Below, one piece after another: positions 1,423-61,045 of a DNA stretch of 64,000 nucleotides. The stretch is taken from NCBI GenBank assembly GCA_951406725.2, contig OX597827.1, forward strand, positions 34,720,001 through 34,784,000, written 5' to 3'. The notes under the pieces are model-generated. The model saw only the letters and a program-made list of their open reading frames with translations, had not been told where the DNA came from and did no database searches. The position numbers and the translations under genes are program-made. This DNA is from Octopus vulgaris. Lineage: Eukaryota. Numbering within the stretch: position 1 is the stretch's first letter; every line of letters starts with the position of its first letter.

Positions 1423-2057
1423 CTAGCAGTATTGCCCGGCGTTGCTCGGGTTTGTAAGGGAAATAACTATATAAGCATTTTTAGAGAGTTATAGCCAAAA
1501 AATAGCAAAAAATGCATTAAAAATGGAAAAAATATGATGGTAAATTTTTTTTAAATCGTTGACTCATCGTAGACATTTTTAGAGAGTTACTTCCCTTATA
1601 TAATAGCGAAAAAATGCATTAAAATGGAAAAAAAACGATGGTAAATTTTTTTAAAATCGTAGACTCATGTAGACGCTTTCTTAGCCATTTCTGTTTTGGT
1701 GTCTTCAAGCCATGAAGTCGTTGTTCTAAAAGAACACTGGTCTCCTTGACAACGCATTACGACGTTGATTTCCTTACACTCCCTTCCCCACAGGTGCAGG
1801 TGTGAGCGTGGACGCCAACTCCGCCGCCATCGACACACGAAAAATTATGCATTAAAATGGAATAAAAAATGATGTTAAATTATTTTTAAAATCGTAGACT
1901 CATCGTAGACGCGCGCTAATACTCAGACGGGCTCGATATGAATCACGACTATAAGCTACCCGAATTTGGTTAAACTGCACCGCAAAATGTGGGAGTAGTT
2001 AGGAATCTAAATCGAAGGGGACAGACACTCACACAACTACAGTTTTATATATATAGA
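1423..2057 (-). mobile_element. Non-autonomous Helitron, family A, copy 1
   Basis: Minus strand starts TCTATATATATAAAA and ends with a CCCGAGCAACGCCGGG hairpin followed by CTAG; five related copies in the window. Confidence 0.8.
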
Positions 2058-2124
2058 TATACATAGCGCAGTAGTGGTGAGATGTGACAGCAAAGAAAAG
2101 CATACATTCACTCTCTGCATGCAA

Positions 2125-2470
2125 TTAGACTCGGAAAGTTCGTGAGGAACCCATTGACCCAATTTGCTGACTTTTCCGATAGCACACAGGTCTCAATGAA
2201 TGGTTGAATGACCAAATCCAAGCTTCTCTGCTAGTTCCTCAACAGTTACGATGAGATTTTGTTCCACCAGGGTTTTCAGGATGTCCTTGTCGAGTTCTAC
2301 AGATCTTTCAGGATGAGGCTCGTCTTCTAGGCTGTAGTTTATGGCTCGGGATTTCTGGAACCACCATTGACACTGCCTTACGCTTATTGTCCAATCCCCA
2401 TATACTGCATTAATATTTCTTGTACTTTGCACACATTTATATTCTGTTATTCTTTTATATGTTTCAGCCT
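2125..2470 (-). pseudogene. Mariner transposase N-terminal fragment (copy 1)
   Basis: RNINAVYG...VRQCQWWFQK...SLEDEPHPERS...TVEELAEKLG helix-turn-helix region, followed downstream by GKVSKLGQWVPHELSE (mariner WVPHEL motif). Confidence 0.9.
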
Positions 2471-2725
2471 TGAGGTTGTGGCCATGCTGGATCATGTGTG
2501 TGTGTGTGTGTGTGTGTGTGTCTATCTGTGTGTCTGTATGTATATATGTATATGTATGTGTGTGAACAATAATATTTTCAACAGATGTGTTGCAAATGTA
2601 TCTGATTGTTCTCAAGCTTCAATACTGTGTGTGTGTGTATGTGTGTGTGTGTATGTATGTATGTATATGTATGTATGTATGTATATGTATGTATGTATGT
2701 ATGTGTGTATGTATGTGTGTGTGTA

Positions 2726-2774
<49 letters not shown>

Positions 2775-3260
2775 ATGTATGTATGTATGTATGTATGAGT
2801 GTATGTTTACTTTATTACTAATTACTCTCTTCCAAGAACATTTTCACTCACTCTTAGCTCTTAGCTTCCCATACATTTTACTCATCTATCTATCAGCGTC
2901 ATAGACAGAATACTTTCACTTTAGTCTTCCTCAAATCACTGTCGCTATTTACTTTCATTTTATTCGTTGCCCACTCTGTGTGTGCGTTTGCGTGTGGTGT
3001 AAACCAGACTAAGAAAAGCATTTGACACACACACCAGAATGTGAGTTTTCTGTAAATTTTGCTTAATTGGAGTTTAAATTTTAAAAACTGGACCTGGCAT
3101 GACGCGATGCATTGTACTCTTAAAAATGCCAAGTAAATTGTAATTGAAGAAATCCTATATCGTAGATTTGTATAACTCCCAAAGGGAGGCAGATAAAATC
3201 TGCCTTTTATAATAAGAGATATATATATATATATGTATGTATATACATATATGCACATAT

Positions 3261-3299
<39 letters not shown>

Positions 3300-3302
<3 letters not shown>

Positions 3303-3935
3303 CAGTATCGCCCGGCGTTGCTCGGGTTTGTAAGGGAAATAACTATATAAGCATTTTTAGAGAGTTATAGCCAAAAAATAGCAAAAAATGCATTAAAAAT
3401 GGAAAAAATATGATGGTAATTTTTTTTAAAAATCGTTGACTCATCGTAGACATTTTTAGAGAGTTACTTCCCTTATATAATAGCGAAAAAATGCATTAAA
3501 ATGGAAAAAAAACGATGGTAAATTTTTTTTTAAATCGTAGACTCATGTAGACGCTTTCTTAGCCATTTCTGTTTTGGTGTCTTCAAGCCATGAAGTCGTT
3601 GTTCTAAAAGAACACTGGTCTCCTTGACAACGCATTACGACGTTGGTTTCCTTACACTCCCTTCCCCACAGGTGCAGGTGTGAGCGTGGACGCCAACTCC
3701 GCCGCCATCGACACACGAAAAATTATGCATTAAAATGGAATAAAAAATGATGTTAAATTATTTTTAAAATCGTAGACTCATCGTAGACGCGCGCTAATAT
3801 TCAGACGGGCTCGATATGAATCACGACTACAAGCTACCCGAATTTGGTTAAACTGTACCGCAAAATGTGGGAGTAGTTAGGAATCTAAATCGAAGGGGAC
3901 AGACACTCACACAACTACAGTTTTATATATATAGA
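3300..3935 (-). mobile_element. Non-autonomous Helitron, family A, copy 2
   Basis: Near-identical to 1423-2057; terminal CTAG eroded into the (TA)n tract. Confidence 0.8.
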
Positions 3936-4002
3936 TATACATAGCGCAGTAGTGGTGAGATATGACAGCAAAGAAAAGCATACATTCACTCTCTGCATGC
4001 AA

Positions 4003-4345
4003 TTAGACTCGGAAAGTTCGTGAGGAACCCATTGACCCAATTTGCTGACTTTTCCGATAGCACACAGGTGTCAATGAATGGTTGAATGACCAAATCCAAG
4101 CTTCTCTGCTAGTTCCTCAACAGTTACGATGAGATTTTGTTCCACCAGGGTTTTCAGGATGTCCTTGTCGAGTTCTACAGATCTTTCAGGATGAGGCTCG
4201 TCTTCTAGGCTGTAGTTTATGGCTCGGGATTTCTGGAACCACCATTGACACTGCCTTACGCTTATTGTCCAATCCCCATATACTGCATTAATATTTCTTG
4301 TACTTTGCACACATTTATATTCTGTTATTCTTTTATATGTTTCAG
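4003..4345 (-). pseudogene. Mariner transposase N-terminal fragment (copy 2)
   Basis: Same peptide as 2125-2470. Confidence 0.9.
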
Positions 4346-5122
4346 CCTTGAGGTTGTGGCCATGCTGGATCATGTGTGTGTGTGTGTGTGTGTGTGTCTA
4401 TCTGTCTGTCTGTATGTATGTATATATGTATGTGTGTGAACAATAATAGTTTCAACAGATGTGTTGCAAATGTATCTGATTGTTCTCAAGCTTCAATACT
4501 GTGTGTGTGTGTATGTGTGTGTGTGTATGTATGTATGTATGTATATGTATGTATGTATGTATGTATATGTATGTATGTGTGTGTGTATGTATGTGTGTGT
4601 GTATGTGTGTGTGTGTATGTATGTATGTATGTATGTATGTATGTATGTATGTATGTATGTATGTATGTATGTATGAGTGTATGTTTACTTTATTACTAAT
4701 TACTCTCTTCCAAGAACATTTTCACTCACTCTTAGCTCTTAGCTTCCCATACATTTTACTCATGTATCTATCATCGTCATAGACAGAATACTTTCACTTT
4801 AGTCTTCCTCAAATCACTCTGTCCGCTATTTACTTTCATTTTATTCGTTGCCCACTGTGTGTGTGCGTTTGCGTGTGGTGTAAACCAGACTAAGAAAAGC
4901 ATTTGACACACACACCAGAATGTGAGTTTTCTGTAAATTTTGCTTAATTGGAGTTTAAATTTTAAAAACTGGACCTGGCATGACGCGATGCATTGTACTC
5001 TTAAAAATGCCAGGTAAATTGTAATTGAAGAAATCCTATATTGTAGATTTGTATAACTCCCAAAGGGAGGCAGATAAAATCTGCCTTTTATAATAAGAGA
5101 TATATATGTATATATATATGTA

Positions 5123-5758
5123 CTAGCAGTATCGCCCGGCGTTGCTCGGGTTTGTAAGGGAAATAACTATATAAGCATTTTTAGAGAGTTATAGCCAAAA
5201 AATAGCAAAAAATGCATTAAAAATGGAAAAAATATGATGGTAAATTTTTTTTAAATCGTTGACTCATCGTAGACATTTTTAGAGAGTTACTTCCCTTATA
5301 TAATAGCGAAAAAATGCATTAAAATGGAAAAAAAACGATGGTAAATTTTTTTTTAAATCGTAGACTCATGTAGACGCTTTCTTAGCCATTTCTGTTTTGG
5401 TGTCTTCAAGCCATGAAGTCGTTGTTCTAAAAGAACACTGGTCTCCTTGACAACGCATTACGACGTTGATTTCCTTACACTCCCTTCCCCACAGGTGCAG
5501 GTGTGAGCGTGGACGCCAACTCCGCCGCCATCGACACACGAAAAATTATGCATTAAAATGGAATAAAAAATGATGTTAAATTATTTTTAAAATCGTAGAC
5601 TCATCGTAGACGCGCGCTAATATTCAGACGGGCTCGATATGAATCACGACTATAAGCTACCCGAATTTGGTTAAACTGTACCGCAAAATGTGGGAGTAGT
5701 TAGGAATCTAAATCGAAGGGGACAGACACTCACACAACTACAGTTTTATATATATAGA
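5123..5758 (-). mobile_element. Non-autonomous Helitron, family A, copy 3
   Basis: Near-identical to 1423-2057. Confidence 0.8.
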
Positions 5759-26050: not shown

Positions 26051-28231
26051 TCAAAGGTCATGTGCTGAATTTGAAGTAATTATTGGAGTTGTTGTAGTGA
26101 AAATCTGTGCTGCTGCACTAGGGTGCATTTGTATGGTTGGAATCACTTGTGCATTTGTTGGGTACATCTGAATTGTGGGAAAAACCTGAGTTGATGGAAA
26201 AATCTGGGCTGCCATTGTATAGAGATCAGAATCAGGTAACGTCATATGTTGAGCAAGTTGAGCATGTGGAAGTGTTGTTTGTGTATCCAGATTGAGATTT
26301 ATCTGCTGTGGCTGAGCTGAGGTTGGCTGTGTCAGGGGGACACCTGTTGCTATGGCGACAGTCTGAGGATGTTGTATTTGTTGTTGGGCAGCTTGGATGT
26401 TAAATAAGTGAAGATCTTGTGCTTTCACAATGTTAATAGTTTGTAGTGGAGCTGCACTCTCTTGAGTTGATGGTTGTGAAGCTGCACTCTCTTGAGCAGT
26501 TGGTTGTGAAGCTGCACTATCTTGAGTAGTTGGTTGTGAAGCTTCACTTTCTTGAATCTGTTGTGCAGTTGAGTCTGTTTCTGTCTTTACTTCTTGTTCT
26601 GGCTGCTCTTGGAGAAGATTTTCAGTGTTTTCTTGTTGTTGTTGTTGCTGCTGCTGCTGTTGTTGTTGTAATGGAACACAGCTTAATTTTCGTTCTCCTT
26701 TGTTTGCTTTTTTATGCCTTTCCAAGTGATCGTTGCGGGCAAAGGCATAACCACATCTTTCACATTTGTAAGGTCGCTCACCAGAATGGATTTTACTGTG
26801 TACTTTCAAATGTGACCTCTGAGAAAAAGACTTTTGGCAAAGGTCACACTGAAATAACTTTTCCCCAAGATGTGTTCGTTTGTGTCGTTTTAATTTACTA
26901 TTAGCTGAGAATGCCTTGCTGCACGTACTGCAGACAAATGGAAGCACTGCGTTGTGAATTTGCTTGTGTAAATTGGTGTGCGAACGCTGAGAGAAAGCTT
27001 TCCAGCAGACATCACAATCAAGAGGATTCATTTCACTCATCAGTTCCTTCATTTTATCATTCTGAGAAGCAGAGTCCTTGTCAAGTATGCTTGAAGATGA
27101 CGATGATGATGATGCACTCTCGGTCAAATGCTTCTCACTAGTGTGTATGCGTTGGTTGTGCACTTTTAAATGTGAGCGTTGGCTGAAAGACTTACCACAC
27201 GTTTTGCAATCAAATGGCTTTAGAGCCTTGTGTATCCGCTCATGCACACTTGCATCTTTGTGCAGCGTGAAAGCTTTCCAGCAGTCTTTACAATCAAATG
27301 GGTTTGATCCATTGAGCTCATATGCTGCCATCCAGTGGTTAGCACTGGCATCAGAGCAGCTGCTGTTCTTTCTGTCTGTTAAGGAAACAGTTCTGGAGCT
27401 GTCTTCTCGGTTGGGAGTCTTTAGTGTGTTATGGATTTTTAAGTGTCGGGCAAGATTACTACTTCTAGAGAACGTGTGTCCGCATATGTTGCACCTATAC
27501 GGTTGTCCACCTGTATGAATTGTTTCATGTTCCTTCAGGTGGAACTTCTGGGAAAACTCCTTTCCACAGACTTTACATGTAAACTTTGTAGAATTGCTAT
27601 CAGGGATCTTATTATCCTCTTCTCTTGTCATAACAACAGATGCTGGAGAATCACTGGAAGTTACACTCTGAGATTGCTGCAGTACTGTTGTCAGAAGTAC
27701 TTGCTGATGTTGTTGTTGCTGTAGTTGTAATTGGTGTTGTTGCTGCATTTGTTGTTGTTTTTGTTGTAGTAGCTCCTCCTCCTCCTCTTCTTCGGCTTGC
27801 TTTTGTTGTTGAAGTTGAATTTGAAGCTCCTGTTGTTGTTGCTGCAACTGCTGTTGTTGTTGTTCCAACAGCTGCTGCTGCTGTTGCTGTTCCAACAACT
27901 GCTGCTGTTGTTGCTGTTGTTGTTCCAACAACTGCTGCTGTTGTTGTTGCTGTTGCAGTTGCTGCTGCTGTTCTTCTTGGTTTGGTTGATGCTGCAACAA
28001 TAGAATATGTTGTGGTTGTTGCTCTTGCTGTTGTTGTTGTTGCTGTTGTTGTTGCAGCAGAAACGTTGGCTGCACAGGGTGGTGGGTGCTGCTGTGTTTC
28101 TCCAATAGCTCATACTGGCTGAACGTCTGTGCACACAAACTGCAACAGTATGCTGCCCCCAGCTTTGTCAGTGCATCGGCAACCAACACAATGGGAAGAC
28201 CCTCATTCGATACTTGGATAACTTGATTCAT
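26051..28231 (-). CDS. PolyQ-rich C2H2 zinc finger protein, 9 fingers (last one atypical), ~726 aa
   Basis: Uninterrupted ORF; first ATG at 28231 (the track start 28303 is TTG, with in-frame stops just upstream); fingers grouped 1+2+2+4; two polyQ tracts. Confidence 0.93.
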   Translation of the reverse strand: MNQVIQVSNEGLPIVLVADALTKLGAAYCCSLCAQTFSQYELLEKHSSTHHPVQPTFLLQQQQQQQQQQEQQPQHILLLQHQPNQEEQQQQLQQQQQQQQLLEQQQQQQQQLLEQQQQQQLLEQQQQQLQQQQQELQIQLQQQKQAEEEEEEELLQQKQQQMQQQHQLQLQQQQHQQVLLTTVLQQSQSVTSSDSPASVVMTREEDNKIPDSNSTKFTCKVCGKEFSQKFHLKEHETIHTGGQPYRCNICGHTFSRSSNLARHLKIHNTLKTPNREDSSRTVSLTDRKNSSCSDASANHWMAAYELNGSNPFDCKDCWKAFTLHKDASVHERIHKALKPFDCKTCGKSFSQRSHLKVHNQRIHTSEKHLTESASSSSSSSSILDKDSASQNDKMKELMSEMNPLDCDVCWKAFSQRSHTNLHKQIHNAVLPFVCSTCSKAFSANSKLKRHKRTHLGEKLFQCDLCQKSFSQRSHLKVHSKIHSGERPYKCERCGYAFARNDHLERHKKANKGERKLSCVPLQQQQQQQQQQQQENTENLLQEQPEQEVKTETDSTAQQIQESEASQPTTQDSAASQPTAQESAASQPSTQESAAPLQTINIVKAQDLHLFNIQAAQQQIQHPQTVAIATGVPLTQPTSAQPQQINLNLDTQTTLPHAQLAQHMTLPDSDLYTMAAQIFPSTQVFPTIQMYPTNAQVIPTIQMHPSAAAQIFTTTTPIITSNSAHDL

Positions 28232-29076
28232 CCTTGATGCTGTTGATGATAATGATGATGATGTACTTACTACTAATGTTGTTGCTGTTCTTGATACTGA
28301 CAAGGGTGGTTGTTTACGTTGTTGTTACTAATGAAGATGATACAGTTTGCGGTATTAATTAAGATTCGTTGCTGCTATAAATGCTTTCTTGATGGGGTTT
28401 TTGTTGCAGTTATTGTTGCTGTCGAGTTACCAGAGAGCTGTCATAATTGAAGTTGTTTCTGTTGCTGTTGTTACCAGAGTTGAAAATCAAGCCAATGAAG
28501 AATCCTCTATGAGGTCACTCAACCTGCTTGAAATAGCAGCCAGATATCTCACAAATCACACTCTGTCTTAGAAAAAAACACTTTTGATAATGGAATCTTG
28601 GTTTCCTTATACATAACAAAAAAAAAAATGAGATGGTTACAGTTGGAATATTTTTGACTGAAGGTGGTTGTAGGTTTCTCAGATCAGGGCTGCCCCGGGG
28701 TTAAACAATACTTGTTTAGATATAGCTTGTATTTGTTCATGTTAATGATGTTCAGTATTGTTAACATTATGTACTGGTTATGGTGGTAATGGTTATTGTC
28801 GGTATTGCTTATGTGGTAGTTGCATCACATTTACTGTTATGTATTCTCTGTGTTGTTGTTGTTGCTCTTTAAGTTTCATGTTACTAATGACAACTGCTGT
28901 TGTTGGTGGTGGTGGTGGTGTATTGGATGAAGCTTCAGACAGACAAGGCAGCTTGGACCATTATTTAATGATTGTTTAAAAGACAGAGAAATAAAAATGA
29001 TCGGGGTGGCGATGATTGAGATACTGTCATAGGTGACCGGATGGATTCATACCCTTGTTCTTCCTTTCATTTCAAA

Positions 29077-47899: not shown

Positions 47900-50062
47900 A
47901 TTATATCAAAGACAATGTCTTTATGTGTTCGTGTATTACTTATACATTCGAAAACTGCTGCACCGATCATAATGAAATTTGGAACACAAAATTCAAGCCT
48001 GGGGAGAAGGATAATACTGTGTGTTTCATACAATTTCATGGACCAAAATTACTGAATAGATCCTTATGATATTTGAAACTTAGATTCAATGCATAAGGGC
48101 GGGTATAATGCAATATGTTTGGTTTGAATTTCAGATGGCTTAAAAGGGGCAGAACCCCCCATGAAAATTCATAAATTTTCGATATTGAAGAAATTTCAAT
48201 CATGGGTAATTGACACACATCATGAAGTATTCTCAAAATTTCCACTTCAAATGAGGATTCTAGGACACCCTAATGGGGGCCTTAACTCCCAAATTTTAGT
48301 CATTTCTTTTATGATCCAAAACTAAGTCAAAAGTACTGAATGGATCTTTACGAAATTTGGAAATTATATTTTATGCATAAAGGCAACAACCCCCATGACA
48401 ATTCATATATTTTTGCGGTTGATGAAATTTTAACCAAAGGTATTGTCATTTTATCTAAGCAAAGACGAATAGTTGTACTCTTCGAAGCTGTAGGGTCATC
48501 CGAGCATAGAAGATGAGCAATGGTACAACAGTGTAAGAGTTTGCTTTGACATACACTTAGATTGTGATTTCTGCTTCACAAGCCTAGGGAGAAGGGTAAT
48601 ACTGTGTGTTTCATACAATTTATATATCTTGCTGTTGAAGAAATTTTAACCATAGATATTAGATACAAATGAAGTAATATTTATAAAATTTCATCTTCTT
48701 ACAAGTTAGAAATACCCCTTCATGGGGACTTAACATCCGCAATTTTGTCATTTATCTAAGCAAAGACGAATAGTTGTACTCTTAGAAGCTGTGGGGTCAT
48801 CCGAGCATAGAAGATGAGCAATGGTACAACAGTGTAAGAGTTTGCTTTGACATACACTTAGATTGTGATTTCTGCTTCACAAGCCTAGGGAGAAGGGTAA
48901 TACTGTGTGTTTCATACAATTTATATATCTTGCTGTTGAAGAAATTTTAACCATAGATATTAGATACAAATGAAGTAATATTTATAAAATTTCATCTTCT
49001 TACAAGTTAGAAATACCCCTTCATGGGGACTTAACATCCGCAATTTTGTCATTTATCTAAGCAAAGACGAATAGTTGTACTCTTAGAAGCTGTGGGGTCA
49101 TCCGAGCATAGAAGATGCGCAATGGTACAACAGTGTAAGAATTTGCTTTGACATACACTTACATTGTGATTTCTGCAATGTGTTGCATAAATTGTCAAGT
49201 AAATGAGAGGCATCTTTGCCTCCACTGATTCAGTTGCAAAGTGTTGAGTAAAGTTATTTGATTGCAGATCTCCTTTCAGTCTTTTTATTAACACTGGATC
49301 ACACATAGTCCCCACATGGTAACATTGATTTCATGGCCTTCCCAGATGAGTGACTGGTTATTCAAAGATATTTATAGATTGTATATTTATTCTGTCCAGT
49401 TACGTATCAGTATAGTGGTCATTTGCAAACTCCAACTTTCATTTCGCCTTAGCCCTCACGTCACACGGTTGTTAATGTTTATTTCAGTTGGGTCACGCCC
49501 TTCCAATTGCTATAGATTCGTAATGCATCTTACGGCTGTGCCTGTCACCTTGATGGTGAGGAATACTACATTGGGAGTGGTAAAGACTAGGGTACTGTAG
49601 CTGACTGCTTATTGTGATCATTCGTCTTTTGGTTTCCTGTAGCTTTGCTCTCTTTTACAAACCCAGTGAACATATATTTTCTATTTCAAAGAAATTCAAA
49701 CAATAGATATAAGACCCAAGTTAAAAAGATTCTCAGCAATTCAACTTCTCTGGTTGACATTAAGATGCCCACCCCAACTCTCACATTTTAGAGCTCCATG
49801 ACCTCCATTTTTCAGGAGCAAAATCCTTTTAACAGGTTCTATAAGACTGGAATTTGGGAATATGCGCATAAAAATCAGTAGTATGGAATACATGTGGCAC
49901 GATTACAATTTTGCTTGGGTGTGTAACGAGGGAAATAACCCTCATCTGCAATTTTGATGAAATTCGAAACATAGGTATTTCAATTCATTACAGAAAATAT
50001 AACAGAAAAGTCAAATTCCTCAACTGTATGTAACTCGGGCAACGTCAGGTTACTATGCTAGT
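47900..50062 (+). mobile_element. Helitron-like family B copy with an internal ~301-bp tandem repeat
   Basis: Homologous to 8704-10850; ends CTCGGGCAACGTCAGG..GCTAG-T; repeat units start at ~48443, 48745 and 49046. Confidence 0.75.
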
Positions 50063-50149: not shown

Positions 50150-50791
50150 ATTCTTTTCCACTCTAGGTACAAGGCCCCAAATTTTAGGGGATAGGGCCAT
50201 TCGATTAGATCGACCCCAGTACGCAACTGGTACTTAATTTATCGACCCCGAAAGGATGAAAGGCAAAGTCGACCTCGGCTGAATTTGAACTCAGAACGAA
50301 ACGGCAGACGAAACACCGGTAAGCATTTTGCTAACGCTTCTGCCAATTCGCCGCCTTAGAAATGTAATAGATTTATTTCTTTATTGCCCACAGTAGGGCT
50401 AAACATAGAAGGGACAAACAAGGACAGACAAAGGAACTAAGTCGAATACATCGAGCCCAGTGCGTAACAGGTACTTACTTAATCGACCTCGAAAGGATGA
50501 AAGGCTAAGTCGACCTCGGTGGAATTTGAACTCAGAACGTAGTGGCAGACGAAATACCTTTTTCTTTATTACCCACAAGGGGCTAAACACAGAGAGGACA
50601 AACAAGGACAGACAAACGGATTAAGTCAATTATATCGACCCCAGTGCGTAACTGGTACTTAATTTATCGACCCCGAAAGGATGAAAGGAAAAGTCGACCT
50701 CGGCGGAATTTGAACTCAGAACGTAACGACAGACGAAATACCGCTAAGCATTTCGCCCGGCGCGCTAACGTTTCTGCCAGCTCGCCGCCTC
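50150..50791 (-). mobile_element. Three tandem SINE family A-related copies
   Basis: 50150-50357, 50373-50558 (5'-truncated) and 50560-50791. Confidence 0.9.
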
Positions 50792-59961: not shown

Positions 59962-60013
<52 letters not shown>

Positions 60014-60038
60014 CTTTATTTAAAAGCAGCAGAAATAT

Positions 60039-60091
60039 AACAAAAGCTGTTACTCAGTGTTTCACGTTCCCGTTCGTCGGACAGTTTTGTT
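60039..60091 (-). ncRNA. Type I hammerhead ribozyme motif
   Basis: AACAAAACTGT-CCGACGA-ACG(GGAA)CGT-GAAAC-ACTGA-GTA-ACAG(C)TTTTGTT; 11-bp helix I with one bulge. Confidence 0.72.
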
Positions 60092-60371
60092 AACAATAGT
60101 GTTCCCTTCATCATTATAAGCAGTCATCACATTCTATTAAAATGTCTTATTGATGGGTTTGCTTTCTTTCTTTCCCTGATGAGATGATTGCAATGTTTTA
60201 CACCATTCCATTCCTACTGGAATAATACCAATGTTGTCTTCGAAACATATGTCTGAAGTAAAAGAATATGAATATGAATAAAACTTGCGTTTAACTCGCC
60301 ATGTTGAATCGCTAGCTTCTGCACGCATTTTTTTTCACTCCTTGTTTCTCTCCGTGTTTCTTTTCTGTGTA

Positions 60372-60409
60372 TCTTTTTGTTGAAGAGCGTAGGCTCGAAA
60401 CGTAAAAGA
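60372..60409 (+). ncRNA. Hammerhead-like motif with variant core
   Basis: TCTTT-TTGTTGA-A-GAGC(GTAG)GCTC-GAAAC-GTA-AAAGA. Confidence 0.5.
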
Positions 60410-60505
60410 CTTGTTTTATTTCTATTCCTGAGCGCCATACTAATACAATTGTTTGTTTGTACTCCACCTGCCTTCGTCATTTGTTTATTTTCATAAAGCT
60501 TCCCG

Positions 60506-60546
<41 letters not shown>

Positions 60547-60977: not shown

Positions 60978-61012
60978 GTTTAACGTTTCGAGCGGAGCTC
61001 TTCGTCGGAAAC
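60978..61012 (-). ncRNA. Minimal type I hammerhead motif
   Basis: GTTT-CCGACGA-A-GAGC(TCC)GCTC-GAAAC-GTT-AAAC; helix I GTTT/AAAC. Confidence 0.65.
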
Positions 61013-61045
61013 ATAGGAGAAGGGAAGACAGAGGAAAAAAAATCG

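What the first reader, a model, noticed from the sequence alone, without database searches (positions are those of the whole stretch)
60039..60091. Best-formed single hammerhead: long helix I, GNRA-capped helix II and GUA site
The minus strand reads AACAAAACUGU-CCGACGA-ACG(GGAA)CGU-GAAAC(ACUGA)GUA^ACAG(C)UUUUGUU. All core positions are present apart from U4>C, and cleavage is predicted between 60051 and 60050. The same CCGACGA core appears in the 1279/60978 family, which has different helices, so the variant seems tolerated or selected.
Basis: partly seen in the sequence, partly recalled or inferred. Interest (0 to 1): 0.7.

Follow-up and report, generated by a model that had tools for sequence, protein, structure and literature searches.

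The report
Jumping-gene hammerhead with altered core
This is the tail of one decayed copy of an abundant animal jumping gene, and its self-cutting RNA motif has an unusual core letter shared by most of the family, so it likely cuts slowly and only as a pair; this copy is a damaged example, not the best one.

Summary
The motif and its coordinates are real. It is the 3' terminal hammerhead of a high-copy Penelope-like retroelement: 1,939 exact copies of the core 22-mer occur in this genome, ending in (TA)n. Longer copies carry a reverse transcriptase and endonuclease with Hydra-clade motifs. It is not a 'best-formed single' ribozyme. The family's helix III is a palindrome (ACUC-N-GAGU), the published dimer type, and this copy has a rare substitution that breaks it (3,205 genomic copies have U there, 69 do not). 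U4>C is the family's master state (89 of 100 listed copies; reversions are at CpG-decay level), whereas all 26 published Hydra rows I saw have U4. U4C is known from a viroid as a strongly slowing change. Copies do not start at the predicted cut (4 of 72); 37 of 72 start at the foot of helix I. Head-to-head pairs have one short and one long end (33 of 35). Cleavage is untested, and RNA-seq could not decide it. The scan has already noted this C4 family or close kin on other DNA. Verdict: a new variant of a known kind, of modest interest.

The parts
60039..60091 (-). Type I hammerhead motif of Penelope-like family A: helix I 4+7 bp, core CCGACGA (U4C), 3-bp helix II with GGAA loop, short helix III, GUA site; predicted cut 60051/60050
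   Evidence: 1,939 exact genomic copies of the core 22-mer, control 0
60052..60060 (-). Helix III region. Family form is the palindrome ACUC-N-GAGU (dimer type); this copy has A instead of U at 60058
   Evidence: 3,205 T against 69 non-T, 34 of them A by hand count
60014..60098 (-). 5'-truncated fragment of family A. It begins just upstream of helix I (5' limit approximate) and stops at the family's 'short' 3' end, without the ~70-nt tail
59962..60013 (.). (TA)n microsatellite at the 3' end of the fragment (insertion target)
60103..60290 (+). 3' fragment of a second Penelope-like family (C), joined head-to-head to the family A fragment with no microsatellite between. It has a canonical CUGAUGA core at 60176, a long helix II and an ACAUAUGU palindrome; predicted cut after 60253. 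Right limit approximate
60296..60506 (+). 3' end of a third high-copy family (B) with a hammerhead-like motif at 60377; most copies read CUGUUGA (A6U)
60507..60541 (.). (TA)n microsatellite closing the composite insertion
60978..61015 (-). Hammerhead motif of family D (CCGACGA core at 61008, GAG/CUC helix II, no loop III); another copy has its core at 1283 on +. Limits approximate
   Evidence: 12,417 matches to the degenerate 24-mer, control 0

Best explanation
The stretch is the 3' terminal hammerhead motif of a truncated, mutated copy of a high-copy Penelope-like retroelement, most likely of the Hydra clade, whose ribozyme would cut only slowly and only as a dimer or with help from the element's protein. 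Shown: family membership, copy number, (TA)n targets, two fixed 3' ends, linkage to an RT-endonuclease ORF, C4 as the master state, the palindromic helix III and its loss in this copy. Inferred from published Penelope work: the element's protein nicks (TA)n and starts reverse transcription at one of two sites downstream of the ribozyme, on uncut RNA, which gives short and long ends and head-to-head pairs. Inferred: two hammerheads in a tandem transcript pair through ACUC-N-GAGU to form the active helix III, and U4C lowers the rate further. This particular copy is predicted to be nearly inert, as monomer and as dimer.
For: Copy number: 1,939 exact 22-mers and 2,704 allowing CpG transitions, controls 0. 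Ends cluster at +67 and +138 from the core and run into microsatellite. Pairs: 33 of 35 head-to-head pairs have one short and one long end, p=4e-8 against 0.5, the tail pattern described in PMC8557442 (passages) and PMC11167929 (parts 1-2 of 4). ORF linkage: 15 of 30 loci found with the endonuclease DNA carry the hammerhead downstream on the same strand within the DNA held, and L139 has one on each side of the ORF, 3.17 kb apart. Protein motifs in those 30 loci: CxCx5C 17, CxxC..EK 25, CxH 29, YRDDG 6, DKT 2, RWK/R 1, Y[VI]GET 0; these fit the Hydra definition (section 11). Relatives: 263 longer proteins at E<=1e-20, mostly ~700 aa; one is named 'Reverse transcriptase domain' and one has a weak RVT_1 hit. 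Published Hydra hammerheads share the layout, e.g. Hydra-2_aMil with stem I ctgt/acag and stem III actc-g-gagt-a (File S2). In 201 fetched copies the only helix III position with no majority above 70% is the unpaired centre of the palindrome. Only 4 of 72 copies start within 2 nt of the cut, in line with uncut RNA as template (PMC11167929).
Against: No cleavage assay. No tree against published Hydra proteins was built; similarity to them was judged by motif and by eye. Pfam gave no relevant hit for the family's own 6 ORF fragments, and PDB gave none. I saw no intact full-length ORF. Outer helix I covariation is weak: 5 of 13 TCACAA-type 5' arms have the matching TGTGA 3' arm, against 3 of 80 AACAAAA-type arms. 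The 201-copy sample was collected with family patterns, so it overstates conservation. G5 and G8 decay at CpG rates (16 and 12 of 201), so single copies show no sign of selection.
Confidence: 0.75

Rival explanations
1. The family's ribozyme no longer cuts. The fold is kept as a structural element: a binding site for the element's protein, or a place where reverse transcription stops and two new strands join.
For: 37 of 72 copies anchored only on their 3' end begin 31-50 nt upstream of the cut, at the foot of helix I. Of copies reaching that stretch 77% stop there, against 23% in the 20 nt before (Fisher p=1e-8) and 27% in the 20 nt after (p=0.003). In RNA reads of a related species, depth rises sharply and most strand-switch joints fall at the same place. 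A neighbouring family reads CUGUUGA (A6U). Catalytic mutants did not affect insertion of an anole PLE in vitro (PMC11167929). U4C considerably lowers activity in vitro (PMC3088659).
Against: All other core positions, the GUA site and the palindromic helix III are unchanged in a subfamily that is only 76-85% alike over the terminal ~70-110 nt, which fits kept catalysis. The viroid U4C variant stayed active enough in vivo. The pile of 5' ends may come from microhomology at a self-complementary TTAA, from endonuclease nicking there, or from a short transcript.
Confidence: 0.2
2. One reading: an efficient single (monomeric) hammerhead at this locus, with U4C compensated by the long helix I and the GNRA loop.
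For: Helix I has 11 bp, the loop is GGAA, and all core bases but U4 are present. The fold can be drawn with a 2-bp helix III.
Against: The active fold is about 3.1 kcal/mol above the ensemble, and C4 opens a competing pairing (P=0.55) that removes helix II. Helix III is of the dimer type and mutated here. A single minimal PLE hammerhead showed no detectable cleavage in vitro (PMC4209133).
Confidence: 0.05
3. Chance resemblance to a hammerhead within an AT-rich repeat.
For: No Rfam hit; the fold is no more stable than shuffles.
Against: 0 descriptor hits in 200 shuffles. Position and layout match published Hydra hammerheads.
Confidence: 0.01

Closest known systems
Hammerheads of Hydra-clade Penelope-like elements, e.g. 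Hydra-2_aMil and Hydra-2_aJap (Craig et al. 2021, PMC8557442; seen: passages, section 11, supplement parts 1-2 of 59 and search hits)
   Same: 3' position behind an RT-endonuclease ORF, (TA)n targets, inner stem I CUGU/ACAG, stem III ACUC-N-GAGU, A17, an extra base after A9; protein motifs DKT, CxCx5C, CxxC and CxH.
   Different: All 26 Hydra rows in File S2 have U4 (ctga); this family has C4. Helix II opens with A-U and is only 3 bp. The one octopus Hydra family listed (Hydra-1_oBim) has a different, canonical hammerhead.
Minimal and palindromic-helix-III type I hammerheads of metazoan PLEs (Cervera and de la Pena 2014, PMC4209133; seen: parts 1-2 of 4 and supplement search, one supplement file not searchable)
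   Same: Unstable palindromic helix III, dimer logic, dispersed truncated copies, pairs on opposite strands.
   Different: The reported core variant is U3-A8; I saw no U4C in the text read. G10.1-C11.1 is highly conserved there but is A-U here.
Viroid U4C hammerhead (Ambros and Flores 1998, seen only as cited in Perreault et al. 2011, PMC3088659; passages and section 8)
   Same: The same core change.
   Different: A variant of a plant viroid, against the master state of a retroelement family with thousands of genomic copies.
PAc Poseidon element of the anole (Frangieh et al. 2024, PMC11167929; parts 1-2 of 4)
   Same: Two RT start sites that give short and long ends; no RNA-seq ends at the cut site; copies span the cut site.
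   Different: Another clade, canonical core, hammerhead overlapping the ORF start; cleavage there was tested and needs the protein.

Membership tests
Type I hammerhead ribozyme | Three-helix junction with core CUGANGA / GAAA / UH | tested here: not met
   All present except U4, which is C. A natural U4C variant is accepted as a hammerhead in PMC3088659, so this marks a variant.
Type I hammerhead ribozyme | Helices I and II can pair around the core | tested here: met
   11 bp and 3 bp, though helix II is a minority fold in this copy (P=0.15).
Type I hammerhead ribozyme | Site-specific self-cleavage giving 2',3'-cyclic phosphate and 5'-OH | not testable with these tools
   RNA-seq showed no end pile, but neither did the canonical-core control.
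Type I hammerhead ribozyme | Match to an Rfam hammerhead model at gathering score | tested here: not met
   0 hits in the window; a weaker E-value scan was not run.
Dimer-type PLE hammerhead | Palindromic short helix III | tested here: met
   Met for the family (3,205 of 3,274); broken in the window copy.
Penelope-like element (EN+) | Single ORF with RT and C-terminal GIY-YIG-type endonuclease upstream of the terminal repeat | tested here: met
   Fragments cover residues 86-711 of a 713-aa relative; no intact copy seen; the endonuclease is called from motifs, not from a profile hit.
Penelope-like element (EN+) | pLTR/tandem layout, inverted 5'-truncated partner, optional tail | tested here: met
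   L139 has flanking hammerheads; 35 head-to-head pairs, 33 with one tail.
Hydra clade | DKT in place of DKG, and RWK motif | tested here: met
   DKT in 2 and RWK/R in 1 of 30 loci; most loci do not reach the N-terminus.
Hydra clade | CxCx5C linker; CxxC and CxH around the conserved E and N; no CCHH-type endonuclease | tested here: met
   17, 25 and 29 of 30; Y[VI]GET, a recalled proxy for other clades, 0 of 30.
Hydra clade | (TA)n insertion preference | tested here: met
Hydra clade | Generally under 3 kb | tested here: inconclusive
   One unit measures 3.17 kb; the stop-to-hammerhead distance runs from about 0.1 to 1.3 kb among copies.
Hydra clade | Phylogenetic placement of RT with published Hydra proteins | not tested
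Non-LTR retrozyme | Short non-coding tandem units of a few hundred nt (definition partly recalled) | tested here: not met
   Copies extend with variable 5' truncation into a coding element.

The most novel reading that the evidence does not exclude
In this lineage, Hydra-clade elements have turned the hammerhead from a cutter into a structural signal. Several very abundant families spread with crippled cores (U4C in families A and D, A6U in family B). The foot of helix I, not the cut site, sets where reverse transcription ends and where the two new strands of one insertion are joined head to head, at times using RNAs of different families.
Probability: 0.2. Interest if true: 0.6.

Novelty: new variant of a known kind. 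Interest (0 to 1): 0.3.

Why it matters
Why Penelope-like elements keep a hammerhead is an open question; in vitro work found cleavage dispensable for insertion. A family that spread to thousands of copies with a core change known to slow cleavage, beside canonical-core families in the same genome, is a natural test set. CUGANGA-based searches would miss such families, so hammerhead counts in animal genomes may be too low. The locus itself is an ordinary decayed copy and a poor choice for the assay.

Tried and rejected
Rfam gathering scan: 0 hits. Pfam on 6 own ORF fragments: nothing relevant; PDB sequence search: 0. I first took the protein for Neptune clade from recall and dropped this after reading the Hydra definition; my second note still says Neptune and gives one UTR length. 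Run search: no RNA holder listed. Raw RNA reads of a related species gave no place where many molecules begin or end on family A, but none on canonical family C either, so the test says nothing on cleavage. An endonuclease fragment near an older-subfamily copy (L240) is a separate insertion, so it cannot date C4. Mixed-family head-to-head joints: 5 of 117 family A ends had family B or D within 420 nt, all separated by microsatellite, so the direct A/C joint in the window found no second example. An origin of C4 and C7 by antisense A-to-I editing was considered and not pursued, for lack of evidence. Lunse et al. 2017 (dimer-cleaving PLE hammerhead variants) and Ambros and Flores 1998 are not held; the first may already list U4C variants. 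Literature searches found U4C only in PMC3088659 and no paper on 5' ends piling at helix I. The bioRxiv retrozyme paper was seen as passages only, with supplements closed.

Full report
Observation. The minus strand of 60091-60039 reads as reported. It has helix I (4 + 7 bp, bulged C), core CCGACGA, a 3-bp helix II with a GGAA loop, GAAAC, ACUGA and GUA, with the predicted cut at 60051/60050. A descriptor gives 2 hits in the window and 0 in 200 shuffles. Rfam finds nothing at gathering level. The lowest-energy fold pairs the core's CCG with CGG instead of forming helix II.

Context. The window lies in a 2.8-Gb animal genome; that it is a cephalopod is my guess from recall, not a tool result. 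The 22-mer from core to GAAAC has 1,939 exact copies, control 0. Copies run into microsatellite at two main points, about 67 and 138 nt from the core; the window copy has the short end at 60014. Many copies stand head to head. Among the pairs in 100 loci taken by position from pattern lists, 33 of 35 have one short and one long end (p=4e-8). This is the tail and inverted-partner layout described for Penelope-like elements (PMC8557442 passages), explained in vitro by two RT start sites (PMC11167929).

Parent element. Walking upstream, copies extend by variable lengths to more than 1.5 kb and reach an ORF end. Of 30 loci found with that DNA, 15 show the hammerhead downstream on the same strand within the DNA held, 0.1 to 1.3 kb behind the stop. 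L139 has a hammerhead on both sides of the ORF. The fragments match a 713-aa relative over residues 86-711 at mostly 40-60% identity. They carry CxCx5C (17 of 30), CxxC..EK (25), CxH (29), YRDDG (6), DKT (2) and RWK/R (1). These are the Hydra-clade marks in section 11 of PMC8557442. Pfam does not recognise the fragments; one relative has a weak RVT_1 hit below the cut-off. No tree was built, and I saw no intact ORF.

Helix III. Published Hydra hammerheads have the same layout, several with ACUC-N-GAGU (File S2). In this genome 3,205 copies have U at 15.3 and 69 have another base; the window copy is one of the 69. The centre base varies freely (T 131, C 55, A 14, G 1 of 201), as expected for the unpaired middle of an intermolecular duplex. 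Predicted self-duplex energy is -7.4 to -7.9 kcal/mol for five family-type copies and -4.8 for the window copy. The active monomer fold is predicted at 0.3-1.8% in all six copies. Single minimal PLE hammerheads showed no cleavage, and dimers only low cleavage, in PMC4209133. So 'best-formed single hammerhead' is wrong on both counts.

U4C. Of 2,704 matches allowing four CpG transitions, the first 100 listed show T at position 4 in 11, against 6, 7 and 7 at the other three CpG sites (hand count). C4 is therefore the master state, and canonical-looking copies are best read as decay. A divergent subfamily, 76-85% alike over the terminal stretch, has C4 in 14 of 16. Family D (12,417 matches) has C4 in 75 and T4 in 25 of 100 listed, but T7 in only 3 (hand count), so there C4 is common but not fixed. 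All 26 Hydra rows in File S2 have U4. The one U4C report I found is a viroid variant with much lower activity in vitro but enough in vivo (PMC3088659; search). Lunse et al. 2017 could not be read and may bear on novelty.

Where copies begin. In 72 copies anchored only on a 32-mer downstream of the cut (from the first 70 or so of 880 matches), 4 begin within 2 nt of the cut and 37 begin 31-50 nt upstream, at the foot of helix I; only 11 reach further. The stop rate there is 77%, against 23% before and 27% after. The window copy begins in this zone. RNA reads of a related species show a depth step and strand-switch joints at the same place. Thus the inserted DNA was copied from uncut RNA, and something at the foot of helix I ends the copy. 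It may be a structure-driven RT stop, joining through the self-complementary TTAA, nicking by the endonuclease, or a short transcript; I could not tell these apart. RNA-seq showed no end pile at the cut for family A or for the canonical control family C, so it is uninformative on cleavage.

Neighbours. The fragment is joined head to head, with no microsatellite between, to a family C fragment that has a canonical hammerhead (core at 60176), which runs into a family B end with an A6U-type core. The whole lies between two (TA)n tracts. The C-B join recurs once elsewhere (L002, 90% alike). A second direct A-to-other-family joint was not found among 117 ends.

Verdict. A known kind of element and ribozyme with a family-wide core variant that I did not find in print for Penelope-like elements. 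The scan's own notes record the same or close families on other DNA, which is not independent support. The locus is an ordinary decayed copy. Interest 0.3. The boldest reading, a hammerhead kept as a structural signal rather than a cutter, has about 0.2 probability.

Noticed in passing
window 60164-60262 (+): Canonical-core hammerhead of another Penelope-like family (C): CUGAUGA, long helix II, perfect ACAUAUGU palindrome. High-copy (2,254 first-look candidates); an endonuclease lies upstream in some copies. Not mentioned in the finding.
   Followed up: partly
window 60296-60506 (+); L002-L030: Family B hammerhead-like end whose usual core is CUGUUGA (A6U), with CUGUAGA and CUGUCGA variants: a second family-wide core change.
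   Followed up: partly
window 1283 (+) and 61008 (-): Family D, at least 12,417 copies, mixes C4 (75 of 100) and U4 (25 of 100) cores, more U4 than decay at the next CpG would give.
   Followed up: partly
window 60014-60506: Composite insertion between two (TA)n tracts: the A short end is head to head with C, and C runs into B. The C-B join also occurs in L002.
   Followed up: partly
L106:1593-1600, reads of a related species: About 60% of reads have U at position 7, while G5>A at about 20% points to C4 in that species too.
   Followed up: no
window 26051-28303 (-): 750-codon open frame that includes glutamine-rich low-complexity repeats; probably a large host exon.
   Followed up: no
window 1476-5375: Three copies of a unit of about 1.85 kb, each with a 101-bp doublet.
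   Followed up: no
window 48443-49176 and 50376-50742: 301-bp tandem repeat (2.4 copies, 98% alike) and a 184-bp doublet.
   Followed up: no
L125:1397-1975 (+); L136:280-741 (-): Mariner-like and pogo/Tigger-like transposase fragments (names from recall) near family copies.
   Followed up: no
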